From positions 194-64,193 of the forward strand of contig WRHR01000005.1 in assembly GCA_009783145.1 (NCBI GenBank): a stretch of DNA of 64,000 bases, written 5' to 3'. A program made the translations under genes and the position numbers. The DNA is from Alphaproteobacteria bacterium (GTDB lineage Bacteria; Pseudomonadota; Alphaproteobacteria; Rs-D84). Below are positions 2,571 through 51,463 of the stretch, one piece after another. The number at the start of each line of letters is the position of its first letter. The first letter of the stretch is position 1. The notes below the pieces were generated by a model that made no database searches, was not told the DNA's origin, and was given only the letters and a program-made list of their open reading frames with translations.

Positions 2571-2592
2571 AAAGAAACCTCTCTTCAAAAAA

Positions 2593-3183
2593 TGTCAGAC
2601 GGGCCGTAAGCCGGATTCTGTTCTATGGCATAATTAATCTGTCGCGGCGGATTACTCCACCGGATCAAGCCCTCTACCCGCCCCCAACGCCAGGCGCGCT
2701 GGGGACCATGTGGAGAAAATATTGCGCGATTTGCGGCAGGGGATTTGAAGCAAGGACGAGGATTTTCGCGCAGACCGTATATTATACGGGCAAGCGGAAA
2801 TCCGAAGTTATTGATTCAAATACGCGCCGTCGCTTTGCGATGCAGCTAAAATCACCCATCGCTTTGTCAGATTGGCTCGATGTATAATATACATTTTCGC
2901 CAATCTTTCGCGCGCTGTGCGATTTTATCTCGCACAAATCGCGCAATATTTTCTCCACATGGCCCCTGGGGGCCTATTTGAAGTTGCACCACATAGAGAT
3001 TGCCCGTTTCACCCGCCTTCGCCAAGGCTACGGCGGGCAAGCCCGTCATGCCTTATTGAAGACGACTCCGTCTCTGTTGCTCTGATCGTCGGGTCGCCCC
3101 GCCGGGCCGTTAGCCCGTATGCTGCCTGGTGGTGTCCGGACTTTCCTCGCCATTTCTGGCGCTATGCCTCGCCCGTCTGACCG
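2593..3183 (-). ncRNA. rnpB: RNase P RNA (bacterial type A core) with large insertion
   Basis: Minus strand contains P4 5' strand GAGGAAAGTCCGGAC (about 3139-3153), P4 3' strand ACAGAATCCGGCTTA (about 2608-2622), P1 pairing GTCAGACGGGC/GCCCGTCTGAC (3171-3181 with 2594-2604), GCAACAGAGA, GGGTGAAAC, CAAATAGG and GGGTAGAGGGC blocks in canonical order. Confidence 0.85.
2706..2962. repeat. 257-nt insertion in rnpB bounded by 28-bp perfect inverted repeat
   Basis: 2706-2733 CCATGTGGAGAAAATATTGCGCGATTTG is the exact reverse complement of 2935-2962; interior holds AT-core palindromes CCGTATATTATACGG and ATGTATAATATACAT. Confidence 0.75.
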
Positions 3184-9102: not shown

Positions 9103-9140
9103 CTTCTCATTCCTTTGTTATTGTTATACAATTTATAAGT

Positions 9141-9718
9141 GCCGGATTCTGGTGCCAGGCTCCGGCGGGCCCCGCATAAGCTAAGCGGGCGTTGCGACAA
9201 TTGCCGCGCGCGCCCTTGTGCCCTTAGGCAGCCAATGCAAGGCGAACATTGCTGTTCGCAGCGATTCTATCGCCATTCAGTTTTTTTCAGCCTTTTTCGG
9301 GAGCAACCCCGGACGCACTCTTTATCTTTCAGCCATTGTCGAGCCTGGTTCACCCCCATGCGCGGCTGCGCCGCGAGAGTGGCGCAAATGCTTCGCATTT
9401 GCTAGAGTAAAGATTCTTCGGCTGCGCCGAAAAATCAGAGTATTCGCTCGCTTCGCTCGCAGAGTAGGAGAGTAAGAGAGTAAAAGAGTAAAAGAGCATC
9501 TAAAACTCTACTACTCTCTTACTCTGCAAATGCGAAGCATTTGCGCTACTCTGCCGGCGAAGCCGGCGTCACTCTGCGCGCGAAGCGCGCGCTACTCTCA
9601 TCCACCATTTCCTATTGCGCCGCAGGCGCAATAGGAAATGGTGGAGGTGCCGGGTACCGCCCCCGGGTCCAAAAAGCCTATTGCATAAAGCATTCAGCAT
9701 CGTCTTCCCCGAAGGGAC
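9141..9718 (-). ncRNA. ssrA: two-piece (circularly permuted) tmRNA gene
   Basis: Acceptor piece ends ...GGACCCGGGGGCGGTACCCGGCACCTCCACCA (CCA at 9639). Coding piece starts GGGGGTGAACCAGGCTCGAC at 9357. GGGGGTG pairs 7/7 with CACCTCC including G3:U70. Tag frame GCT GCG AAC AGC AAT GTT CGC CTT GCA TTG GCT GCC TAA = AANSNVRLALAA. Confidence 0.8.
9358..9638. repeat. ~280-nt tmRNA intervening segment built of AGAGTANN octamers and GCGAAGC-centred mini-hairpins
   Basis: AGAGTAGG AGAGTAAG AGAGTAAA AGAGTAAA on one side and TACTCT units on the other, interspersed with GCAAATGC-GAAG-CATTTGC, GCCGGCGAAGCCGGC, GCGCGCGAAGCGCGCGC, CGCTCGCTTCGCTCGC. Confidence 0.75.
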
Positions 9719-9724
9719 TTACTA

Positions 9725-9752
9725 ATTATAAGGGAAATTTATGAAAAATCAA
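9725..9752 (-). promoter_or_regulatory. sigma70-like promoter TTGATT-16-TATAAT for ssrA
   Basis: Minus strand -35 at 9752-9747, -10 at 9730-9725; predicted start gives an acceptor piece of about 80 nt. Confidence 0.45.
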
Positions 9753-10051
9753 GCGCCTTGCTTTTTCGCCGCAGCCAATGCCGCGCGCAAGGATTTCTCG
9801 GCCAAAACCCGGATTTTCGGCGCAAATGCCCGCATATTCATCGCGTCTGCCACAGAATTCGCGAAAAGCTCTGCTATATAATTAACCTGAGTCGGCGCAA
9901 TCACGAAGACTTCACTGGAAATCTGTTCGGGCCGCAACTTCAATGCGCCCCCCTTCGCTGAAGCTATGGGGGGCAGGCCCGGGGTCGGCCTGTCCGCCGG
10001 AGCCTTGGCGTAGGCGGATTTTTTTATGATGTCTTCTATTGAATTTTCCAT
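9749..10051 (-). CDS. hypothetical protein containing two copies of the GC-hairpin insert
   Basis: 100-aa ORF divergent from secA; residues YAKAPADRPTPGLPPIASAKGG are encoded by hairpin copies at 9948-9973 and 9993-10018. Confidence 0.45.
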   Translation of the reverse strand: MENSIEDIIKKSAYAKAPADRPTPGLPPIASAKGGALKLRPEQISSEVFVIAPTQVNYIAELFANSVADAMNMRAFAPKIRVLAEKSLRAALAAAKKQGA

Positions 10052-18059: not shown

Positions 18060-20660
18060 TTACTTTATGAAACATTGACCAGTAGAAGCCACCCAAGTTC
18101 CCCCCGGCAGTATCTTGCAAGCTTCTTGCGCATAGCTGCTGTCCAATATGCATCTTGTGCCCGAAGGATCCATATGCGCCAAACCTTGGCCGCCCACTAT
18201 CTCGTCCGCTATCTGGCACGAAACCATAACGGTATTAACCACGCACAGCCCCCAGCCGATAGACCTGTCCGTAGTTCCGCCGGACTGCGGTGAATCTGTC
18301 GCCCTGGCCGCATATTGAACCGACAAATCCTGCGCCGCGCGCGCGGCATTCGCCGGCGTCACGGCCCCGCGAGCCGCCACCGCGCCATATATTGGCTTAT
18401 TCACCATCGCCGCCCTTTCCGCAGCCTGGACGGCCATCGCCTCGTATTTATCCAGCCTTGCGACGCTTGCCCCTGTCTCCATCAGACCGGCGGCCCAAAG
18501 GCTTACCGTTTCTTTCAGCTTCGCCAAACCGCCATAGACTTGGCCGGCGAATACGGGCTCTATCTCCAACTTCCTGCTCTTGCTTTTGTTCGCGAGTTCC
18601 TGCGCGCTGTCCGGATGCATAATCCACACGCCGTTCAAATCATTGCATATATTCTGCAGCTGGTCGCCCAGCTCGGCCCGCAGGCTGTCCATAGCCTTTG
18701 TAACCGCGCTGATCGTGGCCGGATCCAAAGTCGCATCCGGATCGCCCAGGCAGAATGTTTTCGCATACGTCTGCAGGTTCGCTTCCAGCTTTCCCGGCGA
18801 AATCAGGCGGCAGCCGTACGGCACGCTGTTTTCCGAATCTCCGGACGCCGGCGCGCATATTTCTTCTATATAGCTTTCCAGCGCCGCGTCGCAGCCCTCG
18901 GCTATTCTGACCGTATCCACCGTGCTGACGAACGCCAGCAGCTCCTTCAAGCCGCACAGATTCGTCGCGGCGTCGCTGCTGCGCAGATTTCCGATAGTAT
19001 TCGAATCAACCTTTTTGCAGTTCATGTCGTTCGGGTTCGCGTACAAGTTCGCGCAAGCCGCAACCTTGTCCGCGCACATAGCGCGCGTTGCTCGCGCCCC
19101 GACCGCTCCGCTGCGCTGCGACGTGGTGTCATCGAAGTCCTTCAACTGGCCGCCGATCGTGTCATAACATTCCTTCATCGTCGTAACGCAGGTCATCTTG
19201 ATTTCTTCCAGCTTTCTGTCCTGGGCTTGGGCGATTTCTATCAAAGCCTGGCGCTTGAAGGCGTCCCAGACCGCGTTCGCGTCGTCTCGGCAGCTGTCCA
19301 AGGACTCCCGCGCGCGGTTCCTGAACGCATCCAGCCCGTTAAGAAAAGCCTTGTTCTCCGGCGCGTTCGGGTTCTCCAGCTTTATCTGGTTCGCCAGATT
19401 GAACAAAAGCGGGGAATAAATCGGCTCGCCCGTTGTCTGGTTGATATACAATCCCGTAAAGTCAAGGCATCTTTTGAAGTTCGGGCCGCAAGCGTATTCA
19501 TGCAATATATCCGCCTGCACTTTGCCTATGCACTCGTTAACGCTGGCCGAGTTATGCGTGCGGTACTCCTCTAATCTCGCGTCACGCAGCATTTTGTTCG
19601 CCTCGCGCACTTTCTGAGCGACCTGCTCTTTCATTCCGTCGATTTTCTTGGAATACGCCTGGCAGTCCTGGCTGATTACCAGACCATAAGCGCTGCGCAC
19701 CATCTGCAATGTCGCCGCATTCTCGCATTGTGCCTGCGCCATCGATGAGCATTGCCTGTCCACTTCGTCATACAGCGCCTTTCCTTCCAACGCCGTCAAA
19801 TCCTTGCCGCGCCCGCCGCCGCCGAACATATCGTCGCTGCCGCCGCCCCAAATATCATCTATCGCGCTGCCGAAATTCATCAAGTTGCTGAAATCCAATC
19901 TGGTCGGCTGCTGCGCCTGCGACGGCTTTTTCTTGCCGCTTAATAAGTCCCCGATTTCATCCAGCATTTTCGCCGCCGCGGACTTGTCCGTCCGCATCGC
20001 TGCCTCGCCCGCTGTGGCCGTCTGCATCGCGCCGACCTCGGCCGCCGTCAGGTTCACGGCCTCCAAATTATTATCGGCAAAGCTTTGCAGCATTGTTTTC
20101 GCTTGATCCAGCGCCGCTTCCATATCGCCGAAATCGCGGAATTTCTCCGAGCATATGCAGCGCCGGTACGTATCGTTCGCCGCCGCGCAGAACTGGTCCA
20201 TGCATGTATTATAAGCCTCGCGGCAATTGTTATATCCCGTGCCCAGCTTCGACAAGTCCCCGAATACCGCCGTCGCCGCCCTGGCCGGCGTTGCGGAGCG
20301 CGATACGCTTGCGCTGCGCGCAGACGACGCGGCAACCGGCGCCGTTGCCGAACGCGCGGCGACCGCGGACCTCGATTGCTGCGGCGGCGCAATTGCCGGA
20401 GTTCTGGCGCCGACCGTTGCAGAACGCGAAACCGTTCTTGTCGCCGCCGTCCGATTCGTAATTTCCGGCGCAGTTTTTTCCGCGCGCGGAGTCTGCGGCG
20501 CGGCGCGAACGCCGCGCGGGTTAGGCGCCCCCGCGCCGTAAGCAAAAGGCGCGCCAAGCACAAAACACAGGGCACCCGCCTTCGCTAGCAACCCTATGAA
20601 CTTCGTACTACGGACGATAGAGGCTACGGCGGGCAAGCAAGACACGGATAATTTCTTCAT
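18060..20660 (-). CDS. large secreted protein, Ala/Arg/Ser-rich N-region and Cys-containing body
   Basis: 866-aa ORF 13 nt upstream of the Cys-rich gene on the same strand; hydrophobic N-terminal segment GALCFVLGAPFAYG; no motif recognised. Confidence 0.6.
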   Translation of the reverse strand: MKKLSVSCLPAVASIVRSTKFIGLLAKAGALCFVLGAPFAYGAGAPNPRGVRAAPQTPRAEKTAPEITNRTAATRTVSRSATVGARTPAIAPPQQSRSAVAARSATAPVAASSARSASVSRSATPARAATAVFGDLSKLGTGYNNCREAYNTCMDQFCAAANDTYRRCICSEKFRDFGDMEAALDQAKTMLQSFADNNLEAVNLTAAEVGAMQTATAGEAAMRTDKSAAAKMLDEIGDLLSGKKKPSQAQQPTRLDFSNLMNFGSAIDDIWGGGSDDMFGGGGRGKDLTALEGKALYDEVDRQCSSMAQAQCENAATLQMVRSAYGLVISQDCQAYSKKIDGMKEQVAQKVREANKMLRDARLEEYRTHNSASVNECIGKVQADILHEYACGPNFKRCLDFTGLYINQTTGEPIYSPLLFNLANQIKLENPNAPENKAFLNGLDAFRNRARESLDSCRDDANAVWDAFKRQALIEIAQAQDRKLEEIKMTCVTTMKECYDTIGGQLKDFDDTTSQRSGAVGARATRAMCADKVAACANLYANPNDMNCKKVDSNTIGNLRSSDAATNLCGLKELLAFVSTVDTVRIAEGCDAALESYIEEICAPASGDSENSVPYGCRLISPGKLEANLQTYAKTFCLGDPDATLDPATISAVTKAMDSLRAELGDQLQNICNDLNGVWIMHPDSAQELANKSKSRKLEIEPVFAGQVYGGLAKLKETVSLWAAGLMETGASVARLDKYEAMAVQAAERAAMVNKPIYGAVAARGAVTPANAARAAQDLSVQYAARATDSPQSGGTTDRSIGWGLCVVNTVMVSCQIADEIVGGQGLAHMDPSGTRCILDSSYAQEACKILPGGTWVASTGQCFIK

Positions 20661-20690: not shown

Positions 20691-21968
20691 TTACGCAAGC
20701 AGATATTCTTTATCCGCGCCAACGATTTTCAAATCGCGCACCGTTCGCGAAGGAATCGGCGCTCCGCTTACCTTTACGGGGATGTCGTCGGGCGTGCGGC
20801 CTATGTTTTTTTCTTCCATCAAAACGCTGGTTGTTTTTCCTATTTGAGACTTCATGAATTCGCGTCGGTTTTGCTGCGCAAGTTCGTTTACAAGCTTTAC
20901 GCGGCGCTTTGATTCCGCGCGGTCCACCTGGTCCGGCATAGTCGCCGCCAAGGTGCCGGGCCTGGGCGAGAACGGAAACGCATGTATATGTATCGGCTTC
21001 AGCTCTTTTATAAGCGCGCAGGTTTCTTCAAACAACTCTGGCGACTCCCCCGGAAATCCGCAGATGATGTCCCAGGAAAAGGTAGGAGGTAGGAGGTAGG
21101 AGGTTGGAGGTGTCATAATTTTCCGCACAATTTCCGCATTATGCCGTCTGCCCATTGCAGAGAGTATTTTATCACTGCCGCTTTGCATTGAAAGATGCAA
21201 GTGCGCCAGCATTCGGGGGTCTCGCGACATCAGCTCGATAATCTTCGCGCATTCGGGGCTGGCCGGATCAACCGAGGACAAGCGCAGGCGCTGCAACTGG
21301 GGGATGTCGTCCAAAAGCCGCCGACACAGGTCGCCAAGCCCCCCGTCCGCGCGATATCCCGCTATATCAACGCCTGTCAAAACAACTTCGGTAAAGCCGT
21401 TCAGGGCCGCGGCGCGGGTTTCGGCCAGAATCCGCTCGTACGGGAAAGAGACGTTTTTCCCACGCAATTTGCTGACTATGCAATACGCGCAGCTGTGATT
21501 GCAGCCGTTCTGGATTTGGATAAAGGCTTTGGATAGCGTTGAGTGTTGAATGTTGAGCGTTGAATTATAAATTTCAGACTTAACTTCACATTTATACGCA
21601 TCAATGTTGAATTTATCCTTATTCGCCACCACTGCCGCGACGCCGGGGATTTTGGCATAGTCTTCGGGAGCGCGGGTCGCGGCGCAGCCCGTGATAAACA
21701 ATGGTACGCCCGGGTGCTCGCTCGGCTTCGCCTGCGCGCATCCTCCTAGTTGCTCGAACTTCGCTACGCTCGTTCTCGCATACTCGGATTCGCGAGCCAG
21801 CTTTCGGATTGCTTGACGGGATTGGCGCTCGGCCTCGGCCGTCACCGCGCAAGTGTTCACTATTATAGCATTTTTGACACCGGCGGCGATAAGCATAGAT
21901 TTGATTTTCTCCGCCTCGACCATATTCAGCCGGCAACCAAACGACAAAAATTTTACTTGATTTTCCAT
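20691..21968 (-). CDS. mtaB: MiaB/MtaB-family radical SAM methylthiotransferase
   Basis: N-terminal FGCRLN...NTCAVT, radical SAM CNHSCAYC, DIICGFPGE, C-terminal TRAM-like region; ATG 21968 chosen because the longer ORF overlaps rpoZ. Confidence 0.8.
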   Translation of the reverse strand: MENQVKFLSFGCRLNMVEAEKIKSMLIAAGVKNAIIVNTCAVTAEAERQSRQAIRKLARESEYARTSVAKFEQLGGCAQAKPSEHPGVPLFITGCAATRAPEDYAKIPGVAAVVANKDKFNIDAYKCEVKSEIYNSTLNIQHSTLSKAFIQIQNGCNHSCAYCIVSKLRGKNVSFPYERILAETRAAALNGFTEVVLTGVDIAGYRADGGLGDLCRRLLDDIPQLQRLRLSSVDPASPECAKIIELMSRDPRMLAHLHLSMQSGSDKILSAMGRRHNAEIVRKIMTPPTSYLLPPTFSWDIICGFPGESPELFEETCALIKELKPIHIHAFPFSPRPGTLAATMPDQVDRAESKRRVKLVNELAQQNRREFMKSQIGKTTSVLMEEKNIGRTPDDIPVKVSGAPIPSRTVRDLKIVGADKEYLLA

Positions 21969-22023
21969 ATATGTTGGGGCATTATAAGCTTCGCTAAAAA
22001 ACATTGCAACAAAGGATTTCCAC

Positions 22024-51195: not shown

Positions 51196-51440
51196 CAAGT
51201 AGCAAGTAGAAAGTAGGAAGTAGGAGGTAGGAGGTAGGAAGTAGGAAGTAGGAGGTAGGAAGTAGGAAGTAGGAGGTAGGAGGTAGGAGGTAGGAGGTAT
51301 AAAAGGGCCGATAGTAATCTTTACCATACTAGTATGATAAGTATAAAATGCTTTGTTCGTTATATTCGTTATAATGGACATCATATTTATAACCTCCTAC
51401 TTCCTACTTCCTACCTCCTACTTCCTACTTTCTACTTCCT
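51196..51440. repeat. heptamer-arm hairpin H7 (GTAGGAA/GTAGGAG units), largest copy
   Basis: About 15 tandem GTAGNAR units at 51196-51300; complementary CCTCCTAC/TTCCTAC units at 51392-51440; interior has CATACTAGTATG palindrome (51325-51336) and core half-site GTTATAATGGACA (51368-51380). Confidence 0.8.
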
Positions 51441-51463
51441 ATCTTTTATGCTATAATTCAACT

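What the first reader, a model, noticed from the sequence alone, without database searches (positions are those of the whole stretch)
20691..21968. mtaB is a hot spot with three separate repeat-derived in-frame insertions
Three insertions are visible:
1. 21715-21800 encodes SEYARTSVAKFEQLGGCAQAKPSEHPGV between the NTCAVT block and the ITGC block. It contains a GAGTA unit plus a GCGAG...CGAAG mini-hairpin like those in the ssrA spacer.
2. 21535-21566 is AGCGTTG AGTGTTG AATGTTG AGCGTTG, read as NSTLNIQHSTL.
3. 21081-21112 is GGTAGGA x3 then GGTTGGA, read as [11 protein letters not shown] just before the conserved DIICGFPGE.

The third uses the same GTAGGAG unit family as elements H6 and H7. The frame stays intact throughout.
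Basis: partly seen in the sequence, partly recalled or inferred. Interest (0 to 1): 0.65.

Follow-up and report, generated by a model that had tools for sequence, protein, structure and literature searches.

The report
Selfish repeats translated inside MtaB
A tRNA-modifying enzyme gene of an uncultured termite-gut bacterium has three pieces of repetitive DNA written into it without breaking the reading frame, which is one instance of a genome-wide habit resembling the palindromic elements found inside Rickettsia genes.

Summary
All three sequence features are real, lie at the stated coordinates and are in frame. The gene (20691-21968, minus strand) is the genome's only mtaB and keeps all six cluster-binding cysteines.

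- **Insertion 1** is a true 72-nt (24-codon) insertion, absent from 119 database orthologues and 12 relatives' genomes. It is not a patchwork of small motifs. It is a copy of a dispersed, gene-less element of about 76 nt, found in about 30 gut alphaproteobacterial MAGs. The element lands next to GAA, often in tRNA-gene fragments.
- **Insertion 2** is a decayed heptamer array. It adds no length compared with the closest relatives, and it sits in a hypervariable linker that carries other heptamer arrays in other lineages.
- **Insertion 3** is a young (ACCTCCT)4.6 array, 6 codons longer than in genus relatives. At least five other lineages carry arrays of different units in this same loop.

"Hot spot" is only partly right. 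This 0.95-Mb genome has about 430 heptamer arrays. About 89 lie inside 57 long ORFs, including MutL, MnmG, PriA, UvrC and IF-2. mtaB is a permissive gene, not a special target.

Best reading: selfish repeats tolerated in two α→β loops and one interdomain linker, filtered by frame and stop-codon constraints. This is RPE-like, but a new variant.

The parts
20691..21968 (-). mtaB coding sequence, 425 aa. It has an N-terminal UPF0004 domain (Cys12, Cys40, Cys95), a radical-SAM core (Cys156, Cys160, Cys163) and a beta-rich C-terminal domain.
   Evidence: ORF and translation. Pfam UPF0004 plus Radical_SAM. The best NCBIfam hit is TIGR01579 MtaB at 315 bits (cutoff 357), and TIGR00089 scores 285 against a cutoff of 251. 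The cysteines are invariant in 30 orthologues. The AF2 model has pLDDT 86.5. The top Foldseek hits are MtaB 9a6d_A and MiaB 7mjz, with TM about 0.8.
21720..21791 (-). Insertion 1: a 72-nt copy of a dispersed, gene-less element (GAATCCGAGTAT...GCGAAGCCGAGC). It is read as ESEYARTSVAKFEQLGGCAQAKPS. The next two codons are GAG CAC (21714-19), where the ancestral sequence was GAA AAY.
   Evidence: There is a 24-codon gap in all orthologues. The own genome has 4 other near-full copies and about 6 variants. Copies occur in 12 of 41 related genomes. There are 80 copies in 68 loci of about 30 MAGs.
21535..21566 (-). Segment 2: a decayed heptamer array (sense strand AATTCAA CGCTCAA CATTCAA CACTCAA CGCT). 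It fills the last ~11 codons of the linker between the UPF0004 and radical-SAM domains.
   Evidence: TRF. The linker is no longer than in relatives. P0003 has CTCCACA x4.3, P0008 has TTCCCTT x4.1 and G004 has ACTGCAA x4.4 at the same place. pLDDT is below 50 at residues 131-139.
21081..21112 (-). Segment 3: a young heptamer array, (ACCTCCT)4.6 on the sense strand, read as [11 protein letters not shown]. It lies in the loop between helix 278-285 and strand 296-303, just before the conserved FSWDIICGFPGE.
   Evidence: TRF score 57 with 96% matches. It is 6 codons longer than the conserved xNxIS/TF loop of genus relatives. It matches 31/32 nt to arrays in PriA and other ORFs. Other units occupy the same loop in P0003, P0008, P0019, G006/P0005 and P0014.
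21981..22009 (-). Promoter-like site TTGCAA-17-TATAAT, 13 nt upstream of the mtaB start codon.
   Evidence: Consensus scan, 10 of 12 matches. This is a pattern match only.

Best explanation
The gene is the organism's single, functional-looking mtaB (ms2t6A tRNA methylthiotransferase). Two unrelated classes of selfish or repetitive DNA that litter this reduced genome have colonised it.

**Class A (insertion 1).** This is a non-autonomous element of about 76 nt with conserved ends: 5' GAATCCGAGTAT and 3' TACGAGGATACGCGCAG-hairpin-GAGC. It inserts next to a GAA. Here it landed at CGC|GAAAACCC, which is the same GAAAACC word it occupies in a tRNA-Ser anticodon-loop sequence in a sister species.

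**Class B (segments 2 and 3).** These are tandem heptamer arrays of a nearly fixed size, about 4.5 units or 32 nt or 11 codons. They replace or extend short stretches of DNA.

Neither class is aimed at mtaB. What we see is what purifying selection lets through:
- net length divisible by three (72 nt against the family mode of 76);
- no stop codon in the frame or frames read;
- a location in the linker or in alpha-to-beta loops on the face of each domain away from the Fe-S clusters.

The repeats are then simply translated as extra loop residues.

What is shown and what is inferred:
- Shown: repeat-family membership, absence from orthologues, recurrence at the same loops, the genome-wide pattern, and the stop-codon and length filters.
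- Inferred: that the protein is made and active, that the loops are harmless, and the actual insertion chemistry, since no enzyme was identified.
For: Gene identity and intactness:
-.
- It is the sole mtaB; the paralogue C1:78759-80096 is MiaB (TIGR01574 405 bits against a cutoff of 355).
- A MiaB/MtaB-family match at E <= 1e-30 is present in all 25 genomes searched. An MtaB-type orthologue with clearly higher identity than the MiaB paralogue is present in the same-family relatives.

Insertion 1:
- Unique 24-codon gap.
- Dispersed family.
- Modal length is 76 nt and only 2 of 80 copies are 72 nt.
- The family's majority GAATAAC would give TAA in the mtaB frame, and it does terminate MtaB in species G002, where a copy sits at the gene's 3' end. 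The window copy has GAGCAAC, like two intergenic copies in the same genome.
- GAA flanks almost all copies, and the GAAAACC target is shared with the tRNA-Ser copy.
- No recurrent neighbouring enzyme gene was found.

Heptamer arrays:
- 428 period-7 arrays against 26 in a shuffled genome.
- Median 4.4 copies.
- 89 arrays lie inside 57 long ORFs, including MutL, MnmG, UvrC, PriA, Der, MurG and IF-2.
- Units that are stop-free on both strands make up 45/89 inside ORFs against 53/279 elsewhere (Fisher p = 2e-8).
- Different units occupy the same two MtaB loops in P0003, P0008, P0019, G006, G004 and P0014. These lineages are scattered among array-free relatives that keep a conserved loop.

Structure:
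- Insertion 1 spans residues 60-83 between helix 44-74 and strand 90-94 (pLDDT 55-68).
- The linker at 131-139 has pLDDT below 50.
- Segment 3 lies between helix 278-285 and strand 296-303.
Against: - There is no expression or protein evidence. No RNA run holds the gene.
- The DNA runs gave no strain-level information, so neutrality and activity are inferred only.
- TIGR01579 stays below its curated cutoff even after insertion 1 is removed in silico (334 bits against 357). The exact substrate assignment therefore rests on best hit, fold and the annotations of orthologues.
- Insertion 1 does not fold significantly better than shuffles (z = -0.8), so it is not a classical palindromic element.
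- Different units recur at exactly the same loop boundaries. This could reflect an active targeting or rewriting process rather than pure selection on random insertions.
- Within this genome, a gene carrying two unpaired arrays plus a class-A element is unexpected under a uniform model. P(>=2 arrays) is 0.011 per gene, and only 2 of about 11 class-A copies are in ORFs. mtaB may therefore be more than averagely prone or tolerant.
- Gene calls for the census were greedy longest ORFs, not a gene finder.
Confidence: 0.75

Rival explanations
1. An active, templated 'array-writing' or gene-conversion process targets pre-existing arrays or particular DNA structures. It repeatedly overwrites the same ~11-codon stretches with whichever heptamer family is currently dominant in each genome. 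On this reading, recurrence at the two MtaB loops reflects homing and unit turnover, not independent random insertions filtered by selection.
For: - Arrays have a nearly fixed size and phase, for example (ACCTCCT)4+ACCT in mtaB, PriA, C14 and C19.
- The window and P0003 both carry arrays at both loops. Their linker units are related (CACTCAA and CACTCCA) but their loop-3 units are unrelated (ACCTCCT and ACTGACG).
- Array ends coincide within about 3 nt of the conserved LSKAF and FSWD blocks in three lineages.
- Segment 2 adds no length.
- The window's loop-3 array is 96% regular, although the proteins are only 75% identical. It is therefore recent or homogenised.
Against: - Array-free relatives keep a conserved xNxIS/TF loop, so arrays are derived and patchy.
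- Net length changes of +18, +18, +6, +21 and +21 nt look like insertions rather than pure overwriting.
- No candidate enzyme was found.
- Coincident boundaries are also what selection on conserved flanking residues would produce.
Confidence: 0.3
2. The inserted loops are adaptive. They give MtaB a new interaction surface or regulation, or the heptamer tracts act as slippage-prone contingency (phase-variation) sites.
For: - The frame is preserved at all three sites.
- The same loops are occupied in several lineages.
- Heptamer tracts can in principle change by units (7 nt) and shift the frame.
Against: - The sequences are not conserved between lineages. Units differ and insertion 1 is unique.
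- The same repeat families are mostly intergenic and occur in dozens of unrelated housekeeping genes.
- Model confidence in the inserts is low.
- No unit-number variants were found in the databases. The 90% cluster holds only two start-codon versions of the same protein.
- A housekeeping tRNA-modification gene is an unlikely contingency locus.
Confidence: 0.08
3. The gene is a decaying pseudogene, or the insertions are assembly artefacts of a metagenome bin.
For: - The genome is a 24-contig MAG.
- Repeats are classic places for mis-assembly.
- The TIGR01579 score is below its cutoff.
Against: - The ORF is open for 425 aa with all invariant catalytic residues.
- Synteny with rpoZ is conserved in a relative.
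- Two runs hold 100% of the sampled 31-mers of the gene, although they may not be independent.
- Equivalent in-frame arrays occur in independently assembled relatives.
- There is no second mtaB that could have taken over.
Confidence: 0.03

Closest known systems
Rickettsia palindromic elements (RPE) inserted in frame in protein-coding genes (Ogata et al. 2000/2002, as summarised in PMC10969869)
   Same: - Short, gene-less, dispersed repeats in a reduced alphaproteobacterial genome.
- Many copies lie in frame inside unrelated housekeeping genes and are translated as extra surface segments compatible with the fold (for the literature; here).
   Different: - RPEs are palindromic elements of about 100-150 bp in ten families with conserved peptides.
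- Here, insertion 1 is about 76 nt and is not a significant palindrome.
- Segments 2 and 3 are tandem heptamer arrays with no fixed sequence.
- No sequence relationship to RPEs was tested.
Bacterial heptamer tandem arrays: cyanobacterial STRR heptanucleotides, Xanthomonas GGGAATC and Nostoc GGGGA(C/T)T repeats (PMC4692102), and Beggiatoaceae TAACTGA repeats (PMC4679880)
   Same: - A 7-nt unit.
- A strong bias to about four units.
- Frequent convergent (inverted) pairs.
- Hundreds of copies per genome (here).
   Different: [quoted passage not shown]
- Here there are about a dozen major units, mostly A/T-rich.
- About a quarter of the arrays lie inside long ORFs.
- Orthologous loops carry different units in different lineages.
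Intragenic MITE/REP-type elements (ERIC, BOX and others) that make in-frame fusions (review PMC10969869)
   Same: Insertion 1 is a short, non-autonomous, multi-copy element with conserved ends and a short flanking repeat (GAA). It is occasionally found inside ORFs.
   Different: - No terminal inverted repeats.
- No identified transposase or autonomous partner.
- A marked association with partial duplicates of tRNA genes, at D-, anticodon- and T-loop GAA sites.
MtaB / MiaB / RimO radical-SAM methylthiotransferases (structures 7MJV-7MJZ, 4JC0; model 9A6D)
   Same: Same three-domain architecture and cysteine motifs. Foldseek TM is about 0.8.
   Different: This copy carries 24 extra residues in the N-terminal domain and repeat-derived linker and loop sequences. 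It scores below the MtaB equivalog cutoff.

Membership tests
MtaB (TIGR01579) within the MiaB/RimO methylthiotransferases | N-terminal UPF0004 domain with three conserved Cys for the auxiliary 4Fe-4S cluster | tested here: met
   Pfam PF00919 at residues 5-66. Cys12, Cys40 and Cys95 are invariant in 30 orthologues.
MtaB (TIGR01579) within the MiaB/RimO methylthiotransferases | Radical-SAM CxxxCxxC motif and core | tested here: met
   PF04055 at residues 150-319. Cys156, Cys160 and Cys163 are invariant.
MtaB (TIGR01579) within the MiaB/RimO methylthiotransferases | Score above the curated equivalog cutoff, which distinguishes MtaB from MiaB and RimO | tested here: inconclusive
   TIGR01579 is the best hit but scores 315 bits, or 334 without insertion 1, against a cutoff of 357. 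The subfamily model TIGR00089 passes (285 against 251). MiaB and RimO models score far lower. A separate true MiaB exists in the genome.
MtaB (TIGR01579) within the MiaB/RimO methylthiotransferases | Overall fold with a C-terminal TRAM-like domain | tested here: met
   AF2 model pLDDT 86.5 with a beta-rich C-terminus at 379-424. The top Foldseek hits are MtaB 9a6d_A (E 1e-34) and MiaB 7mjz. Pfam TRAM itself was not detected.
RPE-like in-frame selfish elements | Multi-copy dispersed family, with copies both intergenic and in frame in ORFs | tested here: met
   Insertion-1 family. Heptamer arrays.
RPE-like in-frame selfish elements | Palindromic (hairpin-forming) sequence | tested here: not met
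   Insertion 1 has z = -0.8 against shuffles, and other copies are no better. The two mtaB arrays have no inverted partner in the gene. Elsewhere in the genome arrays do form inverted pairs.
RPE-like in-frame selfish elements | Sequence homology to RPE-1 to RPE-10 | not tested
   No RPE reference sequences were compared.
Heptamer tandem arrays (STRR / Xanthomonas type) | 7-nt unit in tandem, typically about 4 units | tested here: met
   Period 7 with 4.6 and 4.0 copies. The genome median is 4.4.
Heptamer tandem arrays (STRR / Xanthomonas type) | G-rich unit able to form G-quadruplexes; avoidance of coding regions | tested here: not met
   Units are 61% A+T overall. 89 of 368 arrays lie inside long ORFs.
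MITE (miniature inverted-repeat transposable element) | Terminal inverted repeats, a target-site duplication and a related autonomous IS | tested here: inconclusive
   GAA is present at both ends of nearly all copies and may be a 3-bp duplication. The ends are not inverted repeats of each other. No associated gene was found near 80 copies.

The most novel reading that the evidence does not exclude
Two undescribed processes may be at work in these gut alphaproteobacteria.

(1) A heptamer 'array writer' lays down modules of about 32 nt with an arbitrary 7-nt unit and repeatedly rewrites the same sites. As a result, orthologous protein loops such as the two in MtaB carry a different unit in each lineage.

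(2) A 72-80-nt element inserts at GAA words that mimic tRNA D-, anticodon- and T-loops. In tRNA genes it is always accompanied by a partial duplication that keeps an intact tRNA. Its landing in mtaB at GAAAACC would be an off-target hit on a tRNA-loop look-alike.
Probability: 0.3. Interest if true: 0.75.

Novelty: new variant of a known kind. Interest (0 to 1): 0.5.

Why it matters
The finding shows, within one well-understood enzyme, how far a protein can absorb selfish DNA. A 24-residue insert sits between two ligands of an Fe-S cluster, and two loops have been rewritten as periodic peptides, while every catalytic residue is kept.

MtaB orthologues from many lineages carry different heptamer units at the same two loops. 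The gene is therefore a convenient natural experiment. It can separate selection for tolerant sites from an active site-directed rewriting mechanism, a question that has stayed open for bacterial heptamer repeats since the cyanobacterial STRR sequences were described.

There is also a practical lesson for annotation. Curated equivalog models miss such genes, and repeat-derived loops can be mistaken for lineage-specific domains.

Tried and rejected
- **Reads.** The remainder returned only foreign contigs sharing the 60-nt core of insertion 1, so it gave no strain or copy-number information.
- **RNA.** No RNA run holds the gene.
- **Strain variants.** The 90% protein cluster holds only two start-codon variants.
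- **Rfam.** A search on eight element-bearing loci gave only tRNAs, plus sub-threshold hits to RtT (E 0.18) and Clostridiales-1 (E 0.016-0.9). None is usable.
- **Folding.** Insertion 1 as DNA is not more stable than shuffles, so the 'palindromic element' label was rejected for it.
- **ssrA spacer.** Similarity to insertion 1 is not significant beyond shared short motifs.
- **Mobilising gene.** A search next to 80 copies found only housekeeping neighbours such as Rho and SSB.
- **Intron idea.** I tested whether the element interrupts otherwise complete tRNA genes. Excising it creates no new tRNA call, and the host fragments are partial duplicates beside an intact gene.
- **Inverted repeat.** A 17-nt inverted match between insertion 1 and 21274-21290 falls in the conserved RLRLSSxDP codons and was dismissed as chance.
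- **Paper search.** A search for heptamer repeats in Alphaproteobacteria found nothing relevant.
Full report
**The gene**

The window's minus strand carries an open 425-codon frame from 21968 to 20691.
- Pfam finds the UPF0004 and Radical_SAM domains.
- The best NCBIfam model is MtaB (TIGR01579) at 315 bits, below its cutoff of 357. The MiaB/RimO subfamily model passes.
- In an alignment with 29 orthologues (55-75% identity, all uncultured Alphaproteobacteria), the three N-terminal cysteines (12, 40, 95) and the CxxxCxxC motif (156, 160, 163) are invariant.
- An AlphaFold model built on that alignment has mean pLDDT 86.5. It superposes on the MtaB model 9A6D and on MiaB and RimO crystal structures with TM about 0.8.
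- The genome is a 947-kb, 24-contig, 50% G+C bin from termite gut. Its only other family member, at C1:78759-80096, is a bona fide MiaB (TIGR01574 405 bits against 355).
- All 25 genomes searched have a family match, and the same-family relatives have a clear MtaB orthologue.

So this is the sole, intact-looking mtaB.

**Insertion 1**

Every orthologue reads ...KLAREN-PG.... This holds for 29, 119 and 12 taken directly from relatives' genomes. The window has 24 extra codons there.

At the DNA level the ancestral CGY GAA AAY CCN has become CGC | GAA TCC GAG TAT ... CCG AGC | GAG CAC CCG. The net gain is 72 nt, at window 21720-21791.

This stretch is a copy of a dispersed element.
- Within the genome, BLAST finds near-full copies at C7:8352, C3:79147, C9:36219 and C6:8705. 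It also finds half a dozen variants that keep the ends (5' GAATCCGAGT, 3' TACGAGGATACGCGCAGACGCGAAGCGNCGAGC) around a different central hairpin.
- Twelve of 41 related genomes carry it, with 1-24 copies each.
- An exact-pattern scan of 185,000 species genomes finds 80 copies in 68 loci of about 30 MAGs. Nearly all are gut Alphaproteobacteria from termite, chicken ('Candidatus Enterousia'), buffalo and rabbit.
- Almost every copy is bounded by GAA on both sides.
- No gene recurs next to the copies, so the element is non-autonomous.
- It does not fold better than shuffled sequence.
- Its likeness to the repeats in the ssrA spacer is limited to GAGTA and GCGAAGC-type mini-hairpin motifs.

Three details explain why this copy survives in a gene.
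- The family's modal length is 76 nt. Only 2 of 80 copies are 72 nt, as the mtaB copy is.
- The majority variant GAATAAC would read TAA in the mtaB frame. The window copy has GAGCAAC, a variant also present in two intergenic copies of the same genome.
- In sister species G002, an independent copy sits at the very 3' end of mtaB. There its TAA does terminate the protein, giving the odd C-terminus EESEYMKSSVVMIE.

The second in-ORF copy in the window's genome, in a 717-aa ORF on C6, is read in the same frame (ESEYMRTS).

**Segments 2 and 3**

Both segments are period-7 tandem arrays, and both are beyond chance. A dinucleotide shuffle of the genome yields 26 weak period-7 arrays with a maximum score of 37. 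The real genome yields 428, of which 100 score at least 57.

*Segment 3.* This is (ACCTCCT)4.6 with one mismatch.
- It matches 31/32 nt to arrays in PriA and other ORFs, and it belongs to a family of about 50 arrays that includes the big hairpin at 51197-51441.
- Genus relatives have a conserved shorter loop (RKLA-ANPVS-FSWD), so the window has 6 extra codons.

*Segment 2.* This array is degenerate: 76-84% matches at period 7, and better as a 14-nt duplication.
- It does not lengthen the protein relative to its nearest relatives.
- It fills the last 11 codons of the hypervariable linker between the two domains.

**Recurrence in other lineages**

TRF on orthologous genes shows arrays of the same size at the same two places but with other units.

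| Lineage | Linker | Loop 3 |
|---|---|---|
| P0003 | CTCCACA x4.3 | ACTGACG x4.3 |
| P0008 | TTCCCTT x4.1 | TGTCACC x4.1 |
| G004 | ACTGCAA x4.4 | none |

By eye, G006 has a whole inverted pair (GGAGGTA / CCTACTT) in the linker and a decayed TCATCCN array in loop 3.

On a maximum-likelihood tree, the loop-3 arrays (window, P0003, P0005/G006, P0008, P0014, P0019) are scattered among array-free relatives that keep the xNxIS/TF loop. The arrays were therefore gained several times, or gained once and then rewritten.

Across 119 orthologues, insertions of five or more residues occur at only four places: the linker, the loop after VDIAGY, loop 3, and the window's unique site 1.

**Is mtaB a hot spot?**

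Within this genome, only moderately.
- Using greedy longest-ORF calls, 89 of 368 arrays lie well inside 57 of 586 ORFs of at least 600 nt, and 23 ORFs have two or more.
- MutL has five, and PriA, MnmG, UvrC and an AddB-like protein have three or more.
- mtaB ranks about 23rd by array density.
- A uniform model gives P = 0.011 for two arrays in a gene of this length and predicts about 7 such genes, against 23 observed.
- mtaB is, however, the only ORF seen with both element classes.

The arrays inside ORFs are filtered. A heptamer array is read in all three phases, so its unit must be stop-free.
- Units stop-free on both strands are 45/89 inside ORFs against 53/279 elsewhere (p = 2e-8).
- Units with stops on both strands are 4/89 against 106/279 (p = 4e-11).
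- The antisense of the mtaB units (TAGGAGG, TTGAGTG) contains stops. This explains why both arrays are solo arms in one orientation, with no inverted partner.

**Structure**

- Insertion 1 (residues 60-83) lies between helix 44-74 and strand 90-94 of the flavodoxin-like N-terminal domain, with pLDDT 55-68.
- Segment 2 lies in the disordered linker, with pLDDT below 50 at residues 131-139.
- Segment 3 lies between helix 278-285 and strand 296-303 of the radical-SAM barrel.

In both domains the cluster ligands sit at the C-terminal ends of strands. Alpha-to-beta loops are therefore on the opposite face. This last step is inference from topology, not a measured distance.

**Interpretation**

The best-supported account is that two kinds of selfish or repetitive DNA, abundant throughout this reduced genome, have entered mtaB. 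They persist where frame, stop-codon and structural constraints allow, and they are translated as extra loop residues.

This is functionally the RPE situation of Rickettsia. It differs in two ways.
- One element is a 76-nt GAA-associated element.
- The others are heptamer arrays like those of cyanobacteria and Xanthomonas. Unlike those, they are not G-rich, are common inside genes and differ in unit between orthologous sites.

Rival readings:
- An active rewriting process is the main rival and is not excluded.
- Adaptive or phase-variable roles are unlikely.
- Pseudogene or assembly-artefact explanations are also unlikely.

**Relative ages**

- Segment 3 is young, with 1 mismatch in 32 nt.
- Insertion 1 is intermediate, at about 92% identity to the nearest copy.
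- Segment 2 is old, shared in place and near-unit with P0003.

**Limits**

- There are no expression or strain data.
- ORF calls are heuristic.
- No enzyme was identified for either process.

Noticed in passing
L057-L064 (G002, G022, G013); own genome C7:8330-8600 and C9:36190-36400: Copies of the insertion-1 element sit inside partial duplicates of the neighbouring tRNA gene, always at a GAA.
- T-loop: TTC|GAATCC plus the 3' end and CCA, downstream of an intact tRNA-Arg, Pro, Ser or Gln.
- Anticodon loop: CTT|GAAAACC of tRNA-Ser(tga).
- D-loop: GGCG|GAATTGG of tRNA-Leu, upstream of the intact gene.

Excising the element does not create a new tRNA call. The mechanism that couples insertion to partial tRNA duplication is unexplained.
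   Followed up: partly
window 2591-3180 (-) and 9138-9756 (-): RNase P RNA spans 590 nt against a 367-position model. The two-piece alpha-tmRNA spans 619 nt against 355. Both structural RNA genes therefore also carry roughly 220-260 nt of inserted repeats, for example AGAGTAAG x4.5 and GCGAAGC mini-hairpins at 9440-9600.
   Followed up: partly
G002:C1:9171-9244 (L045, L015): In a same-genus species, an independent copy of the 76-nt element replaces the last codons of mtaB and supplies its stop codon (C-terminus EESEYMKSSVVMIE).
   Followed up: yes
own genome C7:8352-8475: One copy of the element is 124 nt long because about 50 nt (AACCGAGGGTCCCACAGGCGAGTGTAAGCGCAGCCAGTGGGCATGAGGAAGCG) are nested inside its 3' hairpin. 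Copies of 89-122 nt also occur in other MAGs.
   Followed up: no
own genome: MutL C3:3365-5182, PriA C11:1979-3151, MurG C2:87065-88144, IF-2 C4:33358-35742, UvrC C1:34092-36197: Inverted pairs of heptamer arrays are translated inside core genes, for example EVGGRRFEVGGKD...PPTSNL in MutL and DETRNAKRETR...RVSRLASRV in IF-2 and UvrC. The arm that would contain TAG (AGGTAGG) is replaced by AGGTTGG when it is read in that orientation.
   Followed up: partly
L095 (JAZRUS010000056.1, 'Eubacteriales bacterium' MAG): One exact match to the 5' end of the element lies in a MAG labelled Eubacteriales. This is either bin contamination or transfer outside the Alphaproteobacteria.
   Followed up: no
G013:C3:3113-4075 (L022): The mtaB orthologue of relative G013 has one in-frame TAA within the matched region. 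This could be a pseudogene or a sequencing error.
   Followed up: no
window 18060-20660 (-): Directly downstream of mtaB lies an 866-aa cysteine-rich secreted-looking protein with no family assignment attempted. A similar Cys-rich ORF (motif CYDAYFGCMDQFC) turned up near element copies in another MAG (L112).
   Followed up: no
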